From Candidatus Marinacidobacterium sp. (GTDB taxonomy: Bacteria; Acidobacteriota; Vicinamibacteria; Marinacidobacterales; Marinacidobacteraceae): a stretch of 64,000 bases of DNA. The stretch is from NCBI GenBank assembly GCA_965220965.1, contig OZ244852.1:2779472-2843471 (forward strand), given 5' to 3'. Positions 25,549 to 52,229 of this stretch are shown in pieces (the first letter of the stretch is position 1; each line of letters opens with the position of its first letter). The notes under the pieces are model-generated. The model was not told the DNA's origin. It searched no databases and saw only the letters and a program-made list of their open reading frames with translations. The translations under genes were made by a program, and so were the position numbers.

Positions 25549-25737
25549 CTTAACAGTCTGTTGATGAAGTCCCGTGCAGCGCCGAGAGCGGTGAGGCGCC
25601 CGGCCGGCAAGGCGCGTGAGCGAGGAATATCGGCAATATTCCGAGCGAAACGGAACGATGAGCGCCCCACAGGGGCGCGGTTCGGCCGGGATGGATCGCC
25701 GCTCGAACGCCGCGTGACTTTGTCAACAGGCTGTTAG
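25549..25737 (-). repeat. ~190 bp MITE-like element, copy 1 (inverted relative to copy 2)
   Basis: It is ~90% identical to the reverse complement of 48593..48782. Its termini form an imperfect 22-bp inverted repeat (CTTAACAGTCTGTTGATGAAGTC ... GACTTTGTCAACAGGCTGTTAG). It has internal hairpins GGAATATCGGCAATATTCC and GCGCCCCACAGGGGCGC. Confidence 0.6.
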
Positions 25738-46463: not shown

Positions 46464-47153
46464 ATGGGGCGCAGCCACATCCGGAGCCGGAGGAACGCCG
46501 ATCCCTCGGGCTACGGCTTCGCTCCCGCGGAGGTCCCGAATCCGCTGGACCCGACTCACCTCTTCGGGGATCCGGCGAAGACGGCGCCGCTCGAGATTGA
46601 GGTGGGTTCCGGCAAGGGGACGTTCCTCGTCGCCGAGGGCGAGGCCCGCCCCGAGACGCTCTTCCTCGGCATCGAGCGGGCGCGCCGCTACTGGCTCTTC
46701 GCCGCCGACCGGCTCCGCCGCCGCGAGCGGGACAACGCCCGCATCCTCCGCGCCGACGCAAACGAGGCGCTGGCCGCCCTCCCTCCGGCCTCGGCCGCCG
46801 GCGTCCACGTCTACTTCCCCGACCCCTGGCCCAAGCGGCGCCATGCGCACCGCCGCCTCCTGGTGAACGCCGACTTCCTGGCGGCCGTCGAACGGGTGCT
46901 GCGCCCGGGCGGGCTCCTCCGGGTGGTCTCGGACGCCCCCGACTACTTCGCGGCCATCCGGGAGACGCTCGCGACCCGTCGCAACCTGGTCCCCTGTCCC
47001 TACGAGCCGCCGGCGTCCGCCGGCGACGGAGAGCTGGCGGGCTCGAACTTCGAGCGGAAGTACCTCGTCGAGGGCCGCCCCATCCAGGCGCTCGCCGCGC
47101 GGCGCGTGGAGTCGCCGCCGGAGGCGCTGGGGGATACGCCGGAGCGCGACTGA
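46464..47153 (+). CDS. trmB: tRNA (guanine46-N7)-methyltransferase
   Basis: …LEIEVGSGKGTFL…VHVYFPDPWPKRRH… gives the TrmB motifs. The start was trimmed to MGRSHI. Confidence 0.85.
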   Translation: MGRSHIRSRRNADPSGYGFAPAEVPNPLDPTHLFGDPAKTAPLEIEVGSGKGTFLVAEGEARPETLFLGIERARRYWLFAADRLRRRERDNARILRADANEALAALPPASAAGVHVYFPDPWPKRRHAHRRLLVNADFLAAVERVLRPGGLLRVVSDAPDYFAAIRETLATRRNLVPCPYEPPASAGDGELAGSNFERKYLVEGRPIQALAARRVESPPEALGDTPERD

Positions 47154-47177
47154 CGCGGCGGGAAGGGACAGCGAGGG

Positions 47178-48608
47178 ATGTCCGGTACCGTTAGGGCTCC
47201 GATGACGCGCGGACAGATCGCCGAATGGGTGGCCGCAGGAGAGTCAGAGACCCAGGAGTTCAAGCGCACAACCGGCCAGCGGCGAGCGGCGGCCAAGGCT
47301 GTCTGCGGGATGCTGAACCATCGCGGCGGGCGGGTTCTGTTCGGCGTGACTCCTGCGGGCGAAGTCGCCGGGCAGCGAACTGGAAGGGACACGCAGGAGG
47401 ACATTTCCCAGGAGCTGCAGCAGATCGACCCGCCGGTCTTCCCCGACATCGACCAGGTCGACGTCGGGGACTCGCTGGTCGTGATCGTCGTGACCGTTCC
47501 CACCGGGACGAATCGTCCGTACAGCTATCGGGGCCAGGCGTACCGGCGCGTGGGCAGGACGACGCTGTCCCTCTCCGGGGACGAGTACAACCGGATGTTG
47601 CTGGAGCGGCTCCACGGTGACTCGCGCTGGGAGACCGAGGAGGCCGCCGGGTGGGACATCGCCGATCTCGATCACGATCAGATCGCCGCAACGGCCGAAG
47701 AGGCGGTGCGGCGCGGGCGCTTGGAAGAACCCGGTACGCGGGCGGCGGAGCCGCTGCTGCGCGGCCTCGGCCTGCTGCGTGGGCGAACGGTTCTGCGGGC
47801 GGCGGTCGCGCTCTTCGGCCGCCGACAACGGCTCGCCACGGAGTACCCGCAGTGTCTCCTGAGGGTCGCCAGGTTTCGGGGGACGACTCGGACGGCGTTC
47901 CTCGACAACCGACAGGTCCACGGCAACGCCTTCGATCTGCTCCACGCCGCGCAGCGCTTCCTGGTGGAGAGCTTGCCGATCGCTGGCCGTGTTGTCCCGC
48001 ACCTCTTCGAGCGGGTCGATGATCCGCTGTATCCGCCGGAGGCCCTGCGGGAGGCCGTGGCGAATGCGATCTGTCATCGCGACTATGCGGCGGGAGGCGG
48101 ATCGATCGGGATCGGCATCTACGACGACCGCCTCGAAGTTACGTCAACCGGCGGACTTCCCTTCGGACTGACGCCGGAGATGCTGTTCGAGCCGCACGAG
48201 TCCCGGCCCTGGAATCCCCTGATCGCCGGCGTCTTCTTCCGTCGGGGGATCATCGAAAACTGGGGTCGCGGAACGCTCCGGATGGCGGAGCTCACCGAGA
48301 GCGCCGGACTTCCTCGCCCGGAGATCGAGGACCAGGCGGGCGCCGTTACGGTGCGCTTCCGACCAGGCCGCTACATCGCCCCCCAGCGGATCGGACGCGA
48401 TCTGACCGAACGACAACGGGCGATCCTGACGATCCTCGGCGAGGCGCCGGAGGGGGTCGCCGTGCGGGACCTCCGGGCTCGTCTGGTGAATGGCTCCACG
48501 GCGCGGCAGGTCGGCAAGGACCTCCAGACACTCCGGGCCCTCGGACTGGCTCTCCCCGCCGGACGGGGACGGGGCGCGCGCTGGCGCCGAGCTCAAGCAG
48601 CCCGTTGA
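47178..48608 (+). CDS. AlbA_2 (divergent-AAA) + HATPase_c_4 + C-terminal wHTH protein (RecG-C-terminal-like putative ATPase/transcriptional regulator; Schlafen-like)
   Basis: The N-terminus (…ESETQEFKR…LNHRGGRVLFGV…) matches AlbA_2. The middle region (…ALREAVANAICHRDY…) matches HATPase_c_4. The C-terminal …LTERQRAILTILGEAPEGVAVRDL… looks like a wHTH. It is full-length relative to the truncated paralogue at 21389. Confidence 0.8.
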   Translation: MSGTVRAPMTRGQIAEWVAAGESETQEFKRTTGQRRAAAKAVCGMLNHRGGRVLFGVTPAGEVAGQRTGRDTQEDISQELQQIDPPVFPDIDQVDVGDSLVVIVVTVPTGTNRPYSYRGQAYRRVGRTTLSLSGDEYNRMLLERLHGDSRWETEEAAGWDIADLDHDQIAATAEEAVRRGRLEEPGTRAAEPLLRGLGLLRGRTVLRAAVALFGRRQRLATEYPQCLLRVARFRGTTRTAFLDNRQVHGNAFDLLHAAQRFLVESLPIAGRVVPHLFERVDDPLYPPEALREAVANAICHRDYAAGGGSIGIGIYDDRLEVTSTGGLPFGLTPEMLFEPHESRPWNPLIAGVFFRRGIIENWGRGTLRMAELTESAGLPRPEIEDQAGAVTVRFRPGRYIAPQRIGRDLTERQRAILTILGEAPEGVAVRDLRARLVNGSTARQVGKDLQTLRALGLALPAGRGRGARWRRAQAAR

Positions 48609-48782
48609 CAAAGTCCCGCGGCGTTCGAGCGGCGATGCATCCCGCCCGAACCACGCCCCTTCGGGGCGCTCATCGTTGCGTTTCGCTCGGAATATTCCCG
48701 ATATTCCTCGCTCACGCGCCTTGTCGGCCGGGCGCCTCACCGCTCTCGGCGCTGCACGCGACCTTATCAACGGACTGCTAGG
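48593..48782 (+). repeat. ~190 bp MITE-like element, copy 2; its left end overlaps the last codons of the AlbA_2 gene
   Basis: See copy 1. It begins …AGCAGCCCGTTGACAAAGTC and ends GACCTTATCAACGGACTGCTAGG. Confidence 0.6.
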
Positions 48783-48822
48783 CGGCGCTGGGTGTGGGAC
48801 GACGCCACGGAGGTTGGTGAGG

Positions 48823-48938
48823 CCATTGGGAAACCATTCGGGCCAATTCCGGAACAATTCGGAACAATTCGGGGCCAATTCGGAACCATTCGCGGAACCA
48901 TTCGGAACAATTCCGGGACAATTCGGAACCATTCGAGG
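48823..48938. repeat. Tandem array of ~11 degenerate 10-11-bp units (consensus ~AAC(A/C)ATTCGG), i.e. ~10.5-bp phasing
   Basis: ccattgggaaa|ccattcggg|ccaattccgg|aacaattcgg|aacaattcgggg|ccaattcgg|aaccattcgcgg|aaccattcgg|aacaattccggg|acaattcgg|aaccattcgagg is seen directly. The antisense ORFs across it are repeat artefacts. Confidence 0.8.
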
Positions 48939-48943
48939 CGATC

Positions 48944-49213
48944 ATGCCCATCACGCCCGGTTCGACCGCCAAGCGAAAGATCAGGCTGCGCCAGGAGGCG
49001 CGGCGGACGCCGGTAGCCCCGCCTGACGACACGGTGGATCAGGAACTCCAGCGTGACGGCGAGGACCACGTCGAGGCCGGACCGGCCACGGCGGTGTCCG
49101 CGGCCTTCGGGCTGCTCGCTCGGCCGGGCGCGGCGCCACAGTCCATCGAGGCGCTGAACGAAGCGATCAGCGCCGGATGGGCCGGTGAGACGCCTCCATC
49201 AGGAAAGCGCTGA
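48944..49213 (+). CDS. Hypothetical small protein (weak ParD/RHH-antitoxin-like C-terminus: …SIEALNEAISAGWAGE…)
   Basis: The ORF begins immediately after the tandem array. The similarity is only to the eye, so both its coding status and its family are uncertain. Confidence 0.25.
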   Translation: MPITPGSTAKRKIRLRQEARRTPVAPPDDTVDQELQRDGEDHVEAGPATAVSAAFGLLARPGAAPQSIEALNEAISAGWAGETPPSGKR

Positions 49214-49336
49214 ACGCGATCTGGCGCGTCAATCAGGGTCAGACGCGCGCGGCAATCAGGATGAGACGCTGAACGCCGGTCGCGAGGGCGGGTGGGCGAG
49301 CCTTCACTGGGGCGCGGTGTGATGTCTCGCTCAAGT

Positions 49337-49379
49337 CATTGGTGCACATCACACGTGACATGGGCAATATGCACCAATG
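49337..49379. promoter_or_regulatory. Inverted repeat CATTGGTGCACAT-N17-ATATGCACCAATG (12/13 match) enclosing CACGTG; the right arm contains the start codon of the COG1373 ATPase
   Basis: Seen directly in the sequence. An operator or translational-control function is inference. Confidence 0.35.
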
Positions 49380-50573
49380 GTCCCTCGTCGAGCGCGAACT
49401 CTCGTCGACCGGATGCTCCGCCTGGAGGCCGCTGTTGGTCTGCTTGGGCCGCGCCAGGCGGGGAAGACGACGCTCGCGCTCGCGATCGCAGCCTCCCGGG
49501 ACGCCGTCTACCTGGACCTCGAGCGGCGCGAGGACCGCGCCGCCCTCGCCGACCCGGCGCGGTTCTTGGCCTCGCAGGAGGACCGGCTGGTCATCCTCGA
49601 TGAAGTGGGCCACGTTCCCGAGCTCTTTGGGGAGCTCCGGGGCCTGATCGACGACGGCCGCCGCCGCGACCGTGGCCTGAGCCGCTTTCTCATCCTCGGA
49701 TCGGCCGCCGTTCCTCTCCTGCGCCAGTCGGAGAGTCTCGCCGGCCGCATCGGCTGGGTGGAGCTTGGACCCCTCGACGTTCTCGAGGTCGACGACGCGG
49801 AACCGGTGGAGCGGCTCTGGGTTCGAGGGGGCCTGCCGCGCAGCTACCTCGCCGAGACCGACGCCGACAGCCTCACGATCCGGACGAACCTGATCGGAAC
49901 GGTGCTGGGGCGCGACCTCCCGCACTTCGCCCCACGCCTCCCCATCGAGACCGTGGACCGGCTATGGGCGATGCTGGCCCATGGCCAGGGAACGCAGCTC
50001 AACCTCTCGCAATTGGCTGGAAGCCTTGGCGTGAGCACTCCCACCGTTGGCCGGTACGTGGATCTGCTCGTGGACCTTCTCCTCGTGCGTCGCCTTCCGC
50101 CCTGTCTCCCGAACCTCCGGAAGCGTCTCGTCAGGTCTCCCCGGCTCTACCTGCGGGATCCGGGGCTGCTCCACGCGCTGCTCGGCATCGGGGACCTGAA
50201 CGCCCTCCTTCGCCACCCCGTCGTCGGCGCAAGCTGGGAGGGCTTCGTGATCGAGACCCTCCTCGCCGCCGCTCCGCCGCGCACCCAGGCGTCCTTCTAC
50301 CGGACGGCGCGCGGCGCCGAAGTTGATCTGGTCCTCCACCTGCCCGGGCGCGCCACCCCCTGGGTGGTCGAGGTCCGCCACGGCGCGGCGCCGAAGCTCA
50401 CCCGCGGATTCCACTCCGCGTGTCACGATCTGGCGCCGGAGCGGGCGTTCGTGGTCCACGCGGGGTCCCGTCGCTTTCCGCTCCCAGGTGGCGCCGAGGC
50501 GATCCCCCTCCGGGCGATGGCGCGCCTGCTCGCTGGGAGCGCGGCCCCCGCCGGCGAGGCTCTCAAGGGTTGA
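49377..50573 (+). CDS. AAA+ ATPase of the COG1373 / DUF4143 family
   Basis: It has Walker A LLGPRQAGKTTLA and Walker B …LVILDEVGHVPELF. The C-terminal DUF4143-like region is rich in conserved Arg/Asp. Confidence 0.8.
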   Translation: MVPRRARTLVDRMLRLEAAVGLLGPRQAGKTTLALAIAASRDAVYLDLERREDRAALADPARFLASQEDRLVILDEVGHVPELFGELRGLIDDGRRRDRGLSRFLILGSAAVPLLRQSESLAGRIGWVELGPLDVLEVDDAEPVERLWVRGGLPRSYLAETDADSLTIRTNLIGTVLGRDLPHFAPRLPIETVDRLWAMLAHGQGTQLNLSQLAGSLGVSTPTVGRYVDLLVDLLLVRRLPPCLPNLRKRLVRSPRLYLRDPGLLHALLGIGDLNALLRHPVVGASWEGFVIETLLAAAPPRTQASFYRTARGAEVDLVLHLPGRATPWVVEVRHGAAPKLTRGFHSACHDLAPERAFVVHAGSRRFPLPGGAEAIPLRAMARLLAGSAAPAGEALKG

Positions 50574-50645
50574 ACGGGGTGTGGCGCGAACCGCCATCAG
50601 TCTCGCCGGGTCTTCTGACGCCGACGCCCCCCTGCGCTCCCTAAG

Positions 50646-51329
50646 TCAACCGCAGAGCGCGTCCAGAATCGGACCGACGACCGACTTTGCGCGACAGGTC
50701 TCCGCGGCGCGCCAGATCTCTGCTGGGCTCGCCTTCCGGTCCCACAGCGCGTCCCGCATCGCTTCGAGCGCCACATCCTTCCCCACGAGCCGACGGAAGC
50801 GAAAGCAGTCCACGACCGTCCGGGCCGGGTTTGTGATCCAGGCGGGCGCGCCCTCGAACTCGATGCGCTCGACGCCATAGCGGAGCGACGCCCCGGAGAA
50901 GCGGATGACCCGTACGGGAAGCTCGGGGATCCGGGGCGCGCGGGCCTTGTGCGGGATCGCGATCCACACGCGTCGCGGGAGCTGGGTCCCAAGCTCGTGA
51001 ACGCTCAGCGCGGTCAGCAGGCAGACGATGCCGCTCGGGACGCGCGCGCAGACCGCCGCTTCGGTGTGGTGCTCAGTCACCTCCGCGTCACGCCAGCGAT
51101 ACAGCCCTCTCGCCACCCGCTCAACCGAGCCGTCTTCCCTGAGTCGCCGGAGAGTGCGCGCACTCATGCCGGCGGCGAACGCGTCCCTACGCCGGAAGAA
51201 GGCGGCTCGGCGCAGGTTCGGTTCCGGTTGCTGTGGACGTTCGGAAACGTCGGCAACAAGAGCTGGGCGCCGACTTTTTGGGCGGAGTTCCCGGTCGACC
51301 TCGCGTTGCTCCGGCGACGGGACGGGCAC
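50646..51329 (-). CDS. AbiEi-family (type IV toxin-antitoxin antitoxin / transcriptional regulator) domain protein, without an adjacent AbiEii
   Basis: …AAFFRRRDAFAAGMSARTLRRLREDGSVERVARGLYRW… matches the AbiEi_4 N-terminal wHTH. The C-terminal domain is conserved. The start was trimmed to an in-frame GTG, which is uncertain; the ORF extends to 51476 but that stretch is Pro/Arg-rich. Confidence 0.68.
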   Translation of the reverse strand: MPVPSPEQREVDRELRPKSRRPALVADVSERPQQPEPNLRRAAFFRRRDAFAAGMSARTLRRLREDGSVERVARGLYRWRDAEVTEHHTEAAVCARVPSGIVCLLTALSVHELGTQLPRRVWIAIPHKARAPRIPELPVRVIRFSGASLRYGVERIEFEGAPAWITNPARTVVDCFRFRRLVGKDVALEAMRDALWDRKASPAEIWRAAETCRAKSVVGPILDALCG

Positions 51330-51728
51330 GGGACTCACGGTGGGGCGCCAGCCGGTGAACGGAGCCAGCGAGAGCCAGCCGAGTGGCTCGGCGCGGTTCG
51401 GAGGAAATTGCTCTCTCCCGCTGCGGTCGGACCGAACGGCGCCGCGAACGGTGACGCGAATCGCTACGCGCCGCAAACGGGATGGTGGCGCGCCCGCAGG
51501 GCCGTGGCCCTCGCGTGACCCTCCGCCTGGAACGGCCGCTCACGAAGTCGAATCACGTTCAGCCCGGGGGCGTCGCGGAGGAGCCCCGCTTCCTGGGAGG
51601 TGGCGCGGGCGGTGGCTTCGGCTTCCGAATGCGACCTGGATGGGGCGTCACCGCCCTCCCCGGTCGCTCGCGGCCCTGTCGACCCGGCGGAGGCACTGGT
51701 TCCCTTGCCACGGTAACTCCCTTACTCC

Positions 51729-52229
51729 TCAGGCAGGCTTCGGGCCTTCTGTGACGTCGGTCGCTGGGTCCGAAGCTCTTCGCAGCCACCCGATGATCTC
51801 GTCGCGCCCCTGGTCCAGGGGTCTCGACGTGGCGCTCTCGCCTCCAGCATGGTCTGCGCACCACGAGGCCGCTCCGGTCGGTTCGAATTCGACTTCGATA
51901 TCCACGCCGCGTCGCTGCCACTCGAGTTGCACGCCACCCGGCGCCGTCGGTACGACGGCTGGCGCGGCCAGGTTCGGGACCAGGGCGACCATCGAAACCA
52001 GGAAGGCGATGGCCTCCTCGATGGCCTCCTCTTTGGGAGTCGCTGCGTTGTAGGAGTTCCAGCCCTTCGGAAGACCCTTCAGCCGTACGGCTGAACGAAT
52101 GGAGTCCAGAATCGGGACCGGCAGGTTGAGGCGACCGACACGGATTCGCGCTTCCGCATCCGGGCGCAACGAAGTATCCGCAGCGTTGTGCGGACGCCGG
52201 CCCCCCGGTTCTTCGGTCACCGCGCCCAC
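51729..52229 (-). CDS. Hypothetical protein
   Basis: 166 aa with non-repetitive, balanced composition (…LPKGWNSYNAATPKEEAIEEAIAFLVSMVAL…). No family was recognised. Confidence 0.45.
   Translation of the reverse strand: MGAVTEEPGGRRPHNAADTSLRPDAEARIRVGRLNLPVPILDSIRSAVRLKGLPKGWNSYNAATPKEEAIEEAIAFLVSMVALVPNLAAPAVVPTAPGGVQLEWQRRGVDIEVEFEPTGAASWCADHAGGESATSRPLDQGRDEIIGWLRRASDPATDVTEGPKPA

What the first reader, a model, noticed from the sequence alone, without database searches (positions are those of the whole stretch)
48823..48938. Iteron-like tandem array with ~10.5-bp phasing between the MITE-like element and a small ORF
Eleven degenerate repeats of AAC(A/C)ATTCGG occur with unit lengths of 9-12 bp. 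Every copy of the core ATTCGG therefore lands on roughly the same face of the helix. Such phased arrays are typical of plasmid or phage iterons (Rep/partition-protein binding) or of cooperative repressor sites, not of ordinary chromosomal intergenic DNA. The array lies directly downstream of a winged-helix-containing AlbA_2 regulator. It also generates mirror-image spurious ORFs on the minus strand.
Basis: seen in the sequence. Interest (0 to 1): 0.62.

Follow-up and report, generated by a model that had tools for sequence, protein, structure and literature searches.

The report
Phased repeat array tied to Schlafen gene
The 11-unit, one-repeat-per-DNA-turn array is real, but it is not a plasmid or phage origin: it is one example of an apparently undescribed repeat array that sits just after the stop codon of a widespread family of bacterial and archaeal Schlafen-ATPase-HTH defence genes, and it is probably the DNA that the protein's own winged-helix domain binds.

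Summary
Window 48823-48938 holds 11 direct units of C(A/C)ATTC(+0-2 nt)GGAA. The ten ATTC cores are spaced 10,11,10,11,10,12,10,11,10 bp, against a longest chain of 2 in 200 simulations.

The array belongs to the upstream gene (47202-48608), a Schlafen/AlbA_2 + GHKL ATPase + C-terminal winged-helix protein ("Schlatpase-HTH"). It does not belong to the orphan small ORF. A 180-bp MITE, with a second copy at 25554-25733, has inserted between the gene and the array.

Arrays of 3-18 units begin within about -25 to +100 bp of the stop codon in:
- 22 of 23 independent contexts of close homologues (53-84% identity, several phyla);
- 7 of 8 distant homologues, including an archaeon.

The unit sequence differs between protein clades, but the period is always 9-12 bp (mean 10.44, n=86). 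A sub-clade that carries a different C-terminal HTH has no array. Downstream genes vary, and homology between unrelated contexts ends at the far edge of the array.

Best explanation (0.55): the units are phased binding sites for the protein's own wHTH and scaffold an oligomer in cis. There is no Rep or Par gene, no DnaA box, no AT-rich unwinding element and no plasmid or phage match, so the iteron/origin reading fails. I found no paper that describes these arrays.

The parts
47202..48608 (+). Schlafen(AlbA_2)-GHKL ATPase(HATPase_c_4)-wHTH gene ('Schlatpase-HTH', 468 aa; an alternative upstream ATG lies at 47178). This is the gene the array belongs to.
   Evidence: Pfam PF04326 scores 4.6e-20 and PF13749 scores 4e-21. 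There are more than 3800 homologues, the best 120 at 61-77% identity across phyla. The AF2 model matches 3LMM, histidine-kinase CA domains, SLFN12/14 and the SAMD9 DNA-binding domain. Conserved E14/E16/E19/K21 and the N288, D308 ATPase motifs are invariant in 20 homologues.
48399..48596 (+). Coding segment for the C-terminal winged helix-turn-helix (residues ~400-465), the proposed reader of the array.
   Evidence: The AF2 model shows H403-414, H421-427, H434-446 and wing strands 450-453/460-463, with pLDDT about 80-88. The motif is conserved as LTERQ..IL...RQVR.DL..LR.LGL...GRGRGARW in array-bearing homologues.
48598..48779 (.). A 180-bp MITE with terminal inverted repeats. It inserted at the last three codons of the gene, supplies the present stop codon, and pushes the array about 180 bp away from the gene.
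   Evidence: Inverted arms lie at 48596-48618 and 48757-48779. A second copy at 25554-25733 is 92% identical over 180 bp.
48823..48938 (+). The array: 11 direct units C(A/C)ATTC(+0-2 nt)GGAA of 10-12 bp each, all in one orientation.
   Evidence: The homologous position in relatives carries arrays with the same CMATTC core.
48944..49213 (+). Orphan 89-aa ORF with GAGG 5 nt before its ATG. Probably not part of the system; possibly not a real gene.
   Evidence: It hits only itself among 5.8 billion proteins and has no Pfam, PADLOC or NCBIfam hit. Its GC3 of 0.80 is gene-like, so it cannot be dismissed outright.

Best explanation
The array is the cognate cis-acting DNA element of the gene immediately upstream, a Schlafen nuclease-GHKL ATPase-winged-helix ('Schlatpase-HTH') defence-island protein. 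Each 10-11 bp unit is a binding site for one C-terminal wHTH. Because there is one unit per helical turn, all sites lie on one face of the DNA, so protomers can line up head-to-tail and contact each other. The usual array size is four units. That would fit the ATP-driven, GHKL-mediated tetramer known for a related Schlatpase protein. The window's 11 units look like an expansion that includes a recent 43-bp (4-unit) duplication. Because the array starts at the stop codon, the protein can load on it in cis as it is made. Shown here: the physical and evolutionary linkage of the array to the gene, the helical period, the dependence on HTH type, and independence from the downstream gene. Inferred: that the wHTH is what binds the units. 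More speculative (about 0.25): that the DNA-bound oligomer is a parked, inactive form of the tRNase. This would parallel the guide-RNA filament that keeps the Schlafen domains of SLFN-pAgo switched off. A transcriptional role is the alternative.
For: (1) Linkage. Arrays of at least 3 units with a 9-12 bp period start within about -25 to +100 bp of the stop codon in 22 of 23 non-redundant contexts of homologues at 53-84% identity. They are also present in 7 of 8 distant homologues: Balneolaceae L065, L135, L136, Atribacter L150, a methanogen archaeon L151/153, L154 and L155-158. Elsewhere in 194 kb of the clade-A loci, the window segment and L065, TRF finds only 5 weak GC-rich arrays and 3 in-gene ones. 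(2) Period. The unit sequence is clade-specific: GGCCAATTCC, GTCGAATTCC, TGGTCTTATTC, TCCATTCGG, TCCAATTRCG, TGCGTCAGATT, AATGTGCAAAA, ATTTGCACAT, AAACCCTTC. The core-to-core spacing, however, is 10 (x40), 11 (x36), 9 (x6) or 12 (x4), mean 10.44 bp, which is the B-DNA helical repeat. L096 alternates 11/10 fourteen times, and the window alternates 10/11. (3) HTH dependence. L120, L123 and L126 have a different C-terminal HTH behind a (GKTT)n linker, and they have no such array. Units co-vary with recognition-helix clades. (4) The array belongs to the gene and not to what follows. Downstream genes are type I R-M hsdM or hsdR, an unrelated conserved protein, a tRNA, or convergent amidase, TetR or integrase genes. 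L109 and L110 share only the gene plus the array. (5) In the window, removing the MITE brings the array to about 45 bp from the gene end, which is the family norm. (6) Literature. Schlatpase proteins number 60,692, and more than 90% of their C-terminal tails are HTH. The GHKL domain drives tetramerisation, and a nucleic-acid-templated filament holds the SLFN nuclease inactive (bioRxiv 10.64898/2026.05.29.728809). The commonest array size is 4 units.
Against: No binding experiment exists. The co-variation of unit and HTH could simply reflect joint inheritance. A binding array at the 3' end of a gene is an unusual place for a regulator's operator. Some arrays with the same unit are not next to a Schlatpase gene: L071, L067, and L059/L094 at contig ends. 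One array-type homologue (L159) and four homologues of other architecture on viral contigs lack arrays. Exact 10-bp or 11-bp arrays drift out of perfect phase over many units. The orientation is always the same as the gene's, and the array is probably co-transcribed, which also fits an RNA-level role.
Confidence: 0.55

Rival explanations
1. RNA-level element. The array is transcribed as the 3' UTR of the Schlafen mRNA. It acts as a repeated RNA ligand, for example a type III toxin-antitoxin-like inhibitor or decoy for the Schlafen RNase, or as an mRNA-stability element.
For: The neighbouring protein carries an RNase (Schlafen) domain, and NCBI names relatives 'RNA-binding domain-containing protein'. 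Arrays start 0-25 bp after the stop with no terminator between them, and they always lie on the coding strand. Type III TA systems pair an endoRNase with tandem RNA repeats (my own knowledge).
Against: A period of 9-12 nt with mean 10.44 across unrelated unit sequences is the DNA helical repeat and has no RNA rationale. The array has no RNA structure beyond shuffles, z = -0.6, and no Rfam match. Its presence tracks the type of DNA-binding HTH. ToxI-type repeats are 34-45 nt and lie upstream of the toxin gene. L097/L098 also carry arrays upstream of the gene.
Confidence: 0.15
2. Operator or promoter for the downstream gene. The Schlatpase-HTH is an ordinary transcription factor, and the array controls whatever lies after it: here the small ORF and the DUF4143 ATPase, elsewhere R-M genes.
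For: In the window the last unit ends 5 bp before the SD/ATG of ORF 48944. In several loci the array sits 15-100 bp before hsdM or another co-oriented gene. OmpR/PhoB-type winged-helix regulators bind 10-11 bp direct repeats (my own knowledge).
Against: The array persists where the next gene is convergent (L096, L099, L065, L155, L151) or is a tRNA (L097). Downstream genes are unrelated to one another, and homology between contexts stops at the array. No sigma-70-like promoter was found in or near the array, and there is too little room between the array and the start codons. The window's ORF is an orphan.
Confidence: 0.12
3. Neutral slippage-prone minisatellite that merely hitch-hikes at the 3' end of a horizontally mobile gene.
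For: Copy number varies from 3 to 18, and a recent 43-bp duplication is visible in the window. Similar 10-mer arrays exist at unrelated places in other genomes.
Against: Arrays with unrelated unit sequences sit at the same position and with the same period in clades down to 28% protein identity, including archaea. They are lost together with an HTH swap. Background frequency of such arrays is very low.
Confidence: 0.05
4. Iterons of a plasmid/phage origin, or a centromere-like partition site.
For: The array consists of phased direct repeats. TRF also finds a 21-bp period, which is iteron-sized. R1 parC has 11-bp repeats bound by ParR (my own knowledge).
Against: No Rep, ParA/ParM or small RHH gene is nearby. 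No DnaA box occurs in 64 kb, and there is no AT-rich DUE. The region has no plasmid or phage similarity, and protein homologues are almost absent from plasmids, in 3 of 72,556 records. The source is a 2.9-Mb chromosome.
Confidence: 0.03
5. Arm-type binding sites of a tyrosine integrase, or another recombination site that mobilises the gene as a cassette.
For: A tyrosine integrase gene lies convergent, just beyond the array, in three divergent loci: L065, L155-158 and L151. The gene is clearly horizontally mobile, at 61-77% identity across phyla.
Against: No integrase is adjacent to the array in the window or in most other loci whose genes were called. In L065 the gene lies between int and an Xis-like HTH_17 gene, so it is cargo inside the element and not at its end.
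Confidence: 0.03

Closest known systems
Type II / Ib partition centromeres (R1 parC bound by ParR; pSM19035 omega sites; TP228 parH)
   Same: These are short (7-11 bp) direct repeats in helical phase. They are coated cooperatively by a small DNA-binding domain to form a one-sided nucleoprotein filament, and the array lies next to the gene of the binding protein.
   Different: Here the binder would be a wHTH at the end of a 468-aa Schlafen-GHKL enzyme, not an RHH adaptor. There is no ParA or ParM motor. The context is a chromosomal defence island, and the array is at the 3' end of the gene rather than around its promoter.
OmpR/PhoB-family and SARP direct-repeat operators (pho boxes, ArcA and TorR boxes)
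   Same: Winged-helix domains bind head-to-tail to 10-11 bp direct repeats, sometimes in runs of 4-10 units.
   Different: There is no receiver domain. The arrays are not upstream of regulated promoters, and they travel with the regulator gene itself.
Plasmid iterons with a cis-acting initiator (e.g. IncFII repA-CIS-oriR)
   Same: A DNA-binding protein gene is followed directly by the repeats it binds, which favours action in cis.
   Different: Here there is no initiator family, no DUE or DnaA boxes and no replicon, and the units are half the usual iteron length.
SLFN-pAgo (RzAgo) guide-RNA filament; Schlatpase supradomain (bioRxiv 10.64898/2026.05.29.728809)
   Same: It has the same Schlafen+GHKL module. 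Oligomeric state, templated by a nucleic acid, sets nuclease activity, and the GHKL domain drives tetramers.
   Different: There the template is a bound guide RNA on an Argonaute core. Here the proposed template is a genomic dsDNA array read by a wHTH, and nothing has been tested.
Type III toxin-antitoxin repeats (ToxI/ToxN)
   Same: A tandem repeat array sits beside an endoribonuclease defence gene.
   Different: ToxI units are 34-45 nt, form structured RNA and lie upstream of the toxin. Here the units are 10-11 bp, show no structure and lie downstream.

Membership tests
Plasmid/phage iteron origin | Adjacent gene for a replication initiator (Rep_3, RepA, etc.) | tested here: not met
   Pfam scan of all neighbours finds trmB, AlbA_2/HATPase_c_4, AAA_14/DUF4143 and AbiEi. 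No Rep family is present.
Plasmid/phage iteron origin | AT-rich unwinding element and DnaA boxes next to the repeats | tested here: not met
   TTWTNCACA has 0 matches in the window. GC never drops below 0.58, and that minimum is the array itself.
Plasmid/phage iteron origin | Located on a plasmid, phage or integrated replicon | tested here: not met
   The array has no similarity in 72,556 plasmids or 50,697 phages. The source contig is 2.88 Mb.
Plasmid/phage iteron origin | Direct repeats, typically 17-22 bp | tested here: inconclusive
   The basic unit is 10-12 bp, with a secondary 21-bp period at 79% match.
Partition centromere (parC/parS-like) | Neighbouring ParA/ParM NTPase plus a centromere-binding adaptor | tested here: not met
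   None found among the neighbours.
Partition centromere (parC/parS-like) | Helically phased short direct repeats | tested here: met
   Spacing is 10-12 bp, mean 10.56 in the window and 10.44 family-wide.
Schlatpase-HTH 3' array (class proposed here) | Lies just 3' of a Schlafen(AlbA_2)+HATPase_c_4+wHTH gene, on the same strand | tested here: met
   The gene is at 47202-48608 and the array at 48823-48938, separated only by a 180-bp MITE.
Schlatpase-HTH 3' array (class proposed here) | At least 3 direct units with a 9-12 bp period and a clade-specific unit sharing the CMATTC core of close relatives | tested here: met
   The window has 11 units of CMATTC..GGAA. Relatives have GGCCAATTC and GGCYCATTCC.
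Schlatpase-HTH 3' array (class proposed here) | Units are bound by the protein's wHTH | not testable with these tools
   Needs EMSA, footprinting or ChIP. There is only indirect support, from the HTH swap and from clade co-variation.
Type III TA RNA repeat (ToxI-like) | 34-45 nt repeats upstream of the toxin gene that form structured RNA | tested here: not met
   Units are 10-12 nt and lie downstream. Fold z = -0.6, and there is no Rfam hit.
REP/BIME/MITE-type dispersed repeat | Many dispersed copies in the genome | tested here: not met
   The unit occurs at chance frequency outside the array. The adjacent 180-bp element is a MITE, but the array is not part of it.
CRISPR array | Repeats of 24-48 bp separated by unique spacers | tested here: not met
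   Units are contiguous, 10-12 bp, with no spacers.

The most novel reading that the evidence does not exclude
The array is a cis-encoded DNA 'parking site' for a toxic defence nuclease. Newly made Schlafen-GHKL-HTH protomers load onto the phased units beside their own gene and form a DNA-templated oligomer or filament that keeps the tRNase silent. A phage cue would then release or re-arrange the oligomer into the active ATP-bound tetramer; candidate cues are host-DNA damage, competition by phage DNA, ATP status or array occupancy. On this reading the repeat array, not a second protein, would act as the antitoxin or sensor partner of the commonest class of prokaryotic Schlafens. That could explain why HisKinase-type Schlafens cloned with only 100-150 bp of upstream sequence gave no defence (PMC13056530).
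Probability: 0.25. Interest if true: 0.85.

Novelty: new variant of a known kind. Interest (0 to 1): 0.72.

Why it matters
Schlafen+GHKL ("Schlatpase") proteins with a C-terminal HTH are the largest class of prokaryotic Schlafens: about 60,000 proteins, and 19-34% of pSlfn architectures in PMC13056530. Their trigger, their regulation and the purpose of the HTH are unknown, and the HisKinase-type members tested so far gave no phage defence.

A conserved, clade-specific, helically phased DNA array welded to the 3' end of the gene provides a concrete candidate ligand for the HTH. It also yields directly testable predictions:
- the protein binds the units;
- a four-unit array matches a tetramer;
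- defence or toxicity depends on the array.

There are two practical consequences. Constructs for functional tests should include the 3' flank. Genome annotators can use the array as a marker for the system. For this window specifically, it removes a false lead: there is no hidden replicon.

Tried and rejected
- Rfam on 46500-51500 at E<=10: only two chance-level hits, neither at the array.
- Promoter and terminator scan of 48400-49500: nothing.
- Small ORF as partner: its only hit is itself, so it was dropped.
- Plasmid and phage DNA similarity: none for the array. The only plasmid hits were to the 23-bp repeat at 49224-49269, which proved to be IS21-end-like.
- Pattern scan of viral contigs: 53 single chance matches and no real array.
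- Pattern scan of GTDB genomes: the source genome is not a representative. There were 41 hits, about 11 of them real arrays. Most are not next to a Schlatpase gene, so the motif alone is not diagnostic.
- I first thought the palindrome GGAATATTCC at 48688 was a 'head' unit like those in L096/L097. It is present in both MITE copies, so it is MITE-intrinsic and unrelated.
- DUF4143/AAA_14 (PADLOC PDC-S01) as the array's partner: it is adjacent to the Schlafen gene in the window and in L097/98, and an ATTC array precedes a DUF4143 gene at a contig end in L070. Most array loci have no DUF4143 gene, and a viral-contig scan found no relatives. I treat it as a frequent neighbour, not a component.
- The motif CATAAGTCATTGA, which punctuates arrays in L097, L101 and L129: it gave no convincing promoter geometry.
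- Look-up of the Petrotoga homologue P0172 failed because it is not on record.
- Taxonomy of the source organism could not be obtained.

Full report
OBSERVATION

The stretch 48823-48938 consists of eleven contiguous direct units: CCATTGGGAAA, CCATTCGGGC, CAATTCCGGAA, CAATTCGGAA, CAATTCGGGGC, CAATTCGGAA, CCATTCGCGGAA, CCATTCGGAA, CAATTCCGGGA, CAATTCGGAA, CCATTCGAGG. The consensus is a 10-mer, C(A/C)ATTCGGAA, with 0-2 extra bases after TTC.

The ten ATTC cores are spaced 10,11,10,11,10,12,10,11,10 bp, mean 10.56. TRF reports periods of 10, 21 and 43 bp. The 43-bp period (2.1 copies, 91% match) shows a recent duplication of a four-unit block.

This is far beyond chance:
- A phased ATTC chain of 10 compares with a maximum of 2 in 200 Markov-1 simulations, and with 6 for the next-best 4-mer in the real window.
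- All six ATTCGG on the + strand of the window are in the array.
- Outside the array the unit occurs at chance frequency.
- An independently assembled metagenome contig of the same organism is identical.

WHAT SURROUNDS IT

Reading left to right:
- trmB;
- a 468-aa AlbA_2 (Schlafen) + HATPase_c_4 (GHKL) protein, 47202-48608;
- a 180-bp inverted-repeat element;
- the array;
- an 89-aa ORF, 48944-49213;
- a 23-bp x2 repeat;
- a palindrome overlapping the start of an AAA_14/DUF4143 ATPase (PADLOC candidate system PDC-S01);
- AbiEi;
- a 166-aa ORF;
- a TonB-dependent receptor.

This is a small defence island on a 2.9-Mb chromosomal contig. Several things are absent: tRNA genes nearby, Rfam hits, promoter-like or terminator-like sites, DnaA boxes and AT-rich stretches.

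The 89-aa ORF has a plausible GAGG 5 nt before its ATG and gene-like GC3. However, among 5.8 billion proteins it matches only itself.

The 180-bp element is a genuine MITE. A second copy, 92% identical, lies at 25554-25733. It begins three codons before the stop of the Schlafen gene and supplies the present stop codon. Without it, the array would lie about 45 bp from the end of the gene.

THE DECISIVE EVIDENCE IS COMPARATIVE

A pattern scan of 185,579 species-representative genomes for four phased units returned 41 hits, about eleven of them real arrays. One of these, in a Balneolaceae chromosome (L065), lies 2 bp after the stop codon of a 28%-identical AlbA_2/HATPase_c_4 gene on the same strand.

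I therefore sampled homologues of the window protein directly. The protein belongs to a family with more than 3800 hits. The top 120 are 61-77% identical although they come from Planctomycetota, Chloroflexota, Verrucomicrobiota, Proteobacteria and Thermoanaerobaculia, which indicates horizontal mobility.

Every context I fetched by exact protein look-up had an array directly after the stop:
- L096 has about 18 units of GGCYCATTCC(C), alternating 11/10 bp.
- L097/98 have arrays on both sides of the gene.
- L099 has 9 exact 10-mers, TCCAATTRCG.

A metagenome scan added 45 loci. After collapsing duplicates, 22 of 23 independent contexts of array-type homologues (53-84% identity) carry at least 3 units with a 9-12 bp period starting between -16 and about +100 bp of the stop. 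The one exception (L102) has two units within the 125 bp available. In the remaining ~180 kb of these loci, TRF with the same criteria finds only five weak GC-rich arrays and three in-gene ones.

A second, very divergent clade was sampled through the L065 protein. It shows the same arrangement with entirely different units:
- Atribacter (ATTTGCACAT x4, inside a type I R-M locus);
- a methanogenic archaeon (AAACCCTTC-type, 6-8 units);
- L154 (15 units);
- L155-158;
- L135 and L136.

L159 has none. Four homologues of other architecture on viral contigs also have none.

FOUR FEATURES POINT TO PROTEIN-DNA RECOGNITION BY THE PROTEIN'S OWN C-TERMINAL DOMAIN

First, the unit sequence differs between clades, but the period does not. 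Over all arrays the spacings are 10 (x40), 11 (x36), 9 (x6) and 12 (x4), mean 10.44 bp. This is the helical repeat of B-DNA. Several arrays alternate 10 and 11, which keeps every unit on one face of the helix.

Second, the AF2 model of the window protein shows a canonical winged helix-turn-helix at residues ~400-465. The rest of the model matches 3LMM, histidine-kinase ATP-binding domains, SLFN12/14 and the SAMD9 DNA-binding domain. Units group with recognition-helix sequence classes.

Third, three homologues (L120, L123, L126) have replaced this wHTH by a different one behind a (GKTT)n linker. These lack the array, and hsdR abuts their stop codon.

Fourth, the array goes with the Schlafen gene and not with what follows. 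Downstream genes are hsdM, hsdR, an unrelated conserved ORF, a tRNA, or convergent amidase, TetR or integrase genes. Between two unrelated contexts (L109 and L110), homology runs from about 7 bp before the start codon to the last unit and then stops.

MECHANISM

The literature I could search calls the Schlafen+GHKL pair the "Schlatpase" supradomain. It covers 60,692 proteins, and more than 90% of their C-terminal tails are HTH. In a Schlatpase-Argonaute fusion, the GHKL domain drives ATP-dependent tetramerisation, and a nucleic-acid-templated filament locks the Schlafen tRNase off (bioRxiv 10.64898/2026.05.29.728809).

A Nature Microbiology paper shows that prokaryotic Schlafens are antiphage tRNases, with HisKinase and HisKinase-HTH fusions as the commonest architectures. 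The HisKinase-type constructs, cloned with only 100-150 bp of upstream DNA, gave no defence (PMC13056530).

Neither these papers nor two others on prokaryotic Schlafens mention flanking repeats.

My best-supported model has three parts:
- Each unit binds one wHTH.
- The one-turn spacing lets protomers align on one face and touch each other. The modal array of four units would fit a tetramer.
- The position at the stop codon favours loading in cis.

Whether the DNA-bound oligomer is a silent store of a toxic nuclease, a sensor or a transcriptional device is inference. I favour the first, by analogy with the RzAgo filament, but give it only about 0.25.

RIVALS

- An RNA role (3' UTR decoy, type III TA-like) fits the conserved strand and the likely co-transcription. 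It does not fit the DNA-helical period, the lack of RNA structure (z = -0.6) or the HTH dependence.
- An operator for the downstream gene fails on the convergent and unrelated downstream genes.
- A neutral minisatellite fails on independent recurrence with unrelated units.
- The iteron/origin/partition reading fails every test except 'phased repeats'.
- Integrase arm sites are suggested by three loci with a convergent integrase. However, no integrase is adjacent to the array in the window or in most other loci with called genes, and in L065 the gene is cargo between int and an Xis-like gene.

CAVEATS

- Nothing has been tested biochemically.
- Co-variation of unit and helix is confounded by common descent.
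- Arrays with the window's own unit (AATTCGGAAC)n also occur away from any Schlatpase gene (L071; L059 and L094 at contig ends). They may be trans sites, remnants or coincidences.
- My literature search covers open-access papers and bioRxiv only.

VERDICT

The replicon reading and the small-ORF reading are wrong.

The array is one member, expanded and displaced by a MITE, of a widespread and apparently undescribed class of helically phased 3' arrays attached to Schlafen-GHKL-HTH defence genes in bacteria and archaea.

Noticed in passing
window 48598-48779 and 25554-25733: Two copies (92% identical) of a 180-bp MITE with ~18-bp terminal inverted repeats (CAGCCCGTTGACAAAGTC...). One copy has inserted into the last three codons of the Schlafen gene and provides its stop codon. 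The apparent 2-bp target duplications are AG and AA.
   Followed up: partly
window 49224-49269: A 23-bp tandem duplication (GCGCGKCAATCAGGRTSAGACGC) matches, at 84-87% identity, intergenic DNA on many rhizobial plasmids. In Mesorhizobium pM0123d the match lies ~85 bp outside istB of an IS21-family element. This looks like a stranded IS21 terminal-repeat remnant between the orphan ORF and the DUF4143 gene.
   Followed up: partly
window 49337-49379: A 13-bp inverted repeat, CATTGGTGCACAT-N17-ATATGCACCAATG, overlaps the ATG of the AAA_14/DUF4143 (PADLOC PDC-S01) gene and looks like an operator. L097/98 have a different palindrome (CCTTGTAATCAAGG...CGTGATTACAAG) in front of their DUF4143 gene.
   Followed up: no
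window 49377-50573; L097/L098 3374-4580; L070: An AAA_14/DUF4143 ATPase is the immediate neighbour of the Schlafen-GHKL-HTH gene, both in the window (downstream) and in L097/98 (upstream, 66% DNA identity). In a Thermoplasmata contig (L070) an AATTC array at the contig end lies 27 bp upstream of a DUF4143 gene. This may be a recurrent gene pair.
   Followed up: partly
L120 2405-2460, L126 4172-4221, L123: A sub-clade of the Schlafen-GHKL proteins, embedded in type I R-M operons, has an in-frame 12-bp tandem array encoding (GKTT)n as a linker to a different C-terminal wHTH. It has no downstream 10-11 bp array.
   Followed up: partly
L078 4547-4598 and L093 6748-6791 (Flavobacterium): Phased ATTCC arrays (5-6 units) lie directly upstream of homologous 289- and 303-aa ORFs of unknown function (34% identity, E = 2e-47, no Pfam family). 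This may be a second, unrelated protein family with its own phased array.
   Followed up: partly
L097 4690-4930, L101 2600-2740, L129 4460-4610: In the closest relatives, the arrays are broken into modules of 3-5 units. Each module is preceded by a conserved ~45-bp spacer containing CATAAGTCATTGA(A/C). The window has a single CAAGTCATTGG at 49332, upstream of the DUF4143 gene. The meaning is unknown.
   Followed up: partly
window 50646-51476 (-) and 51729-52229 (-): An AbiEi antitoxin-like gene (PADLOC E = 7e-69) has no recognisable AbiEii toxin partner. The adjacent 166-aa ORF has only weak hits to the C-terminal part of PADLOC candidate PDC-M32A.
   Followed up: no
L096 6415-6435; L097 4650-4675 and 6420-6445; L155 2880-2925: Some arrays begin with one inverted unit, forming a palindrome (for example GGAATGGAATTCCCATTCC) ahead of the direct units. 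This may be a symmetric nucleation site. The window's array has no such head.
   Followed up: no
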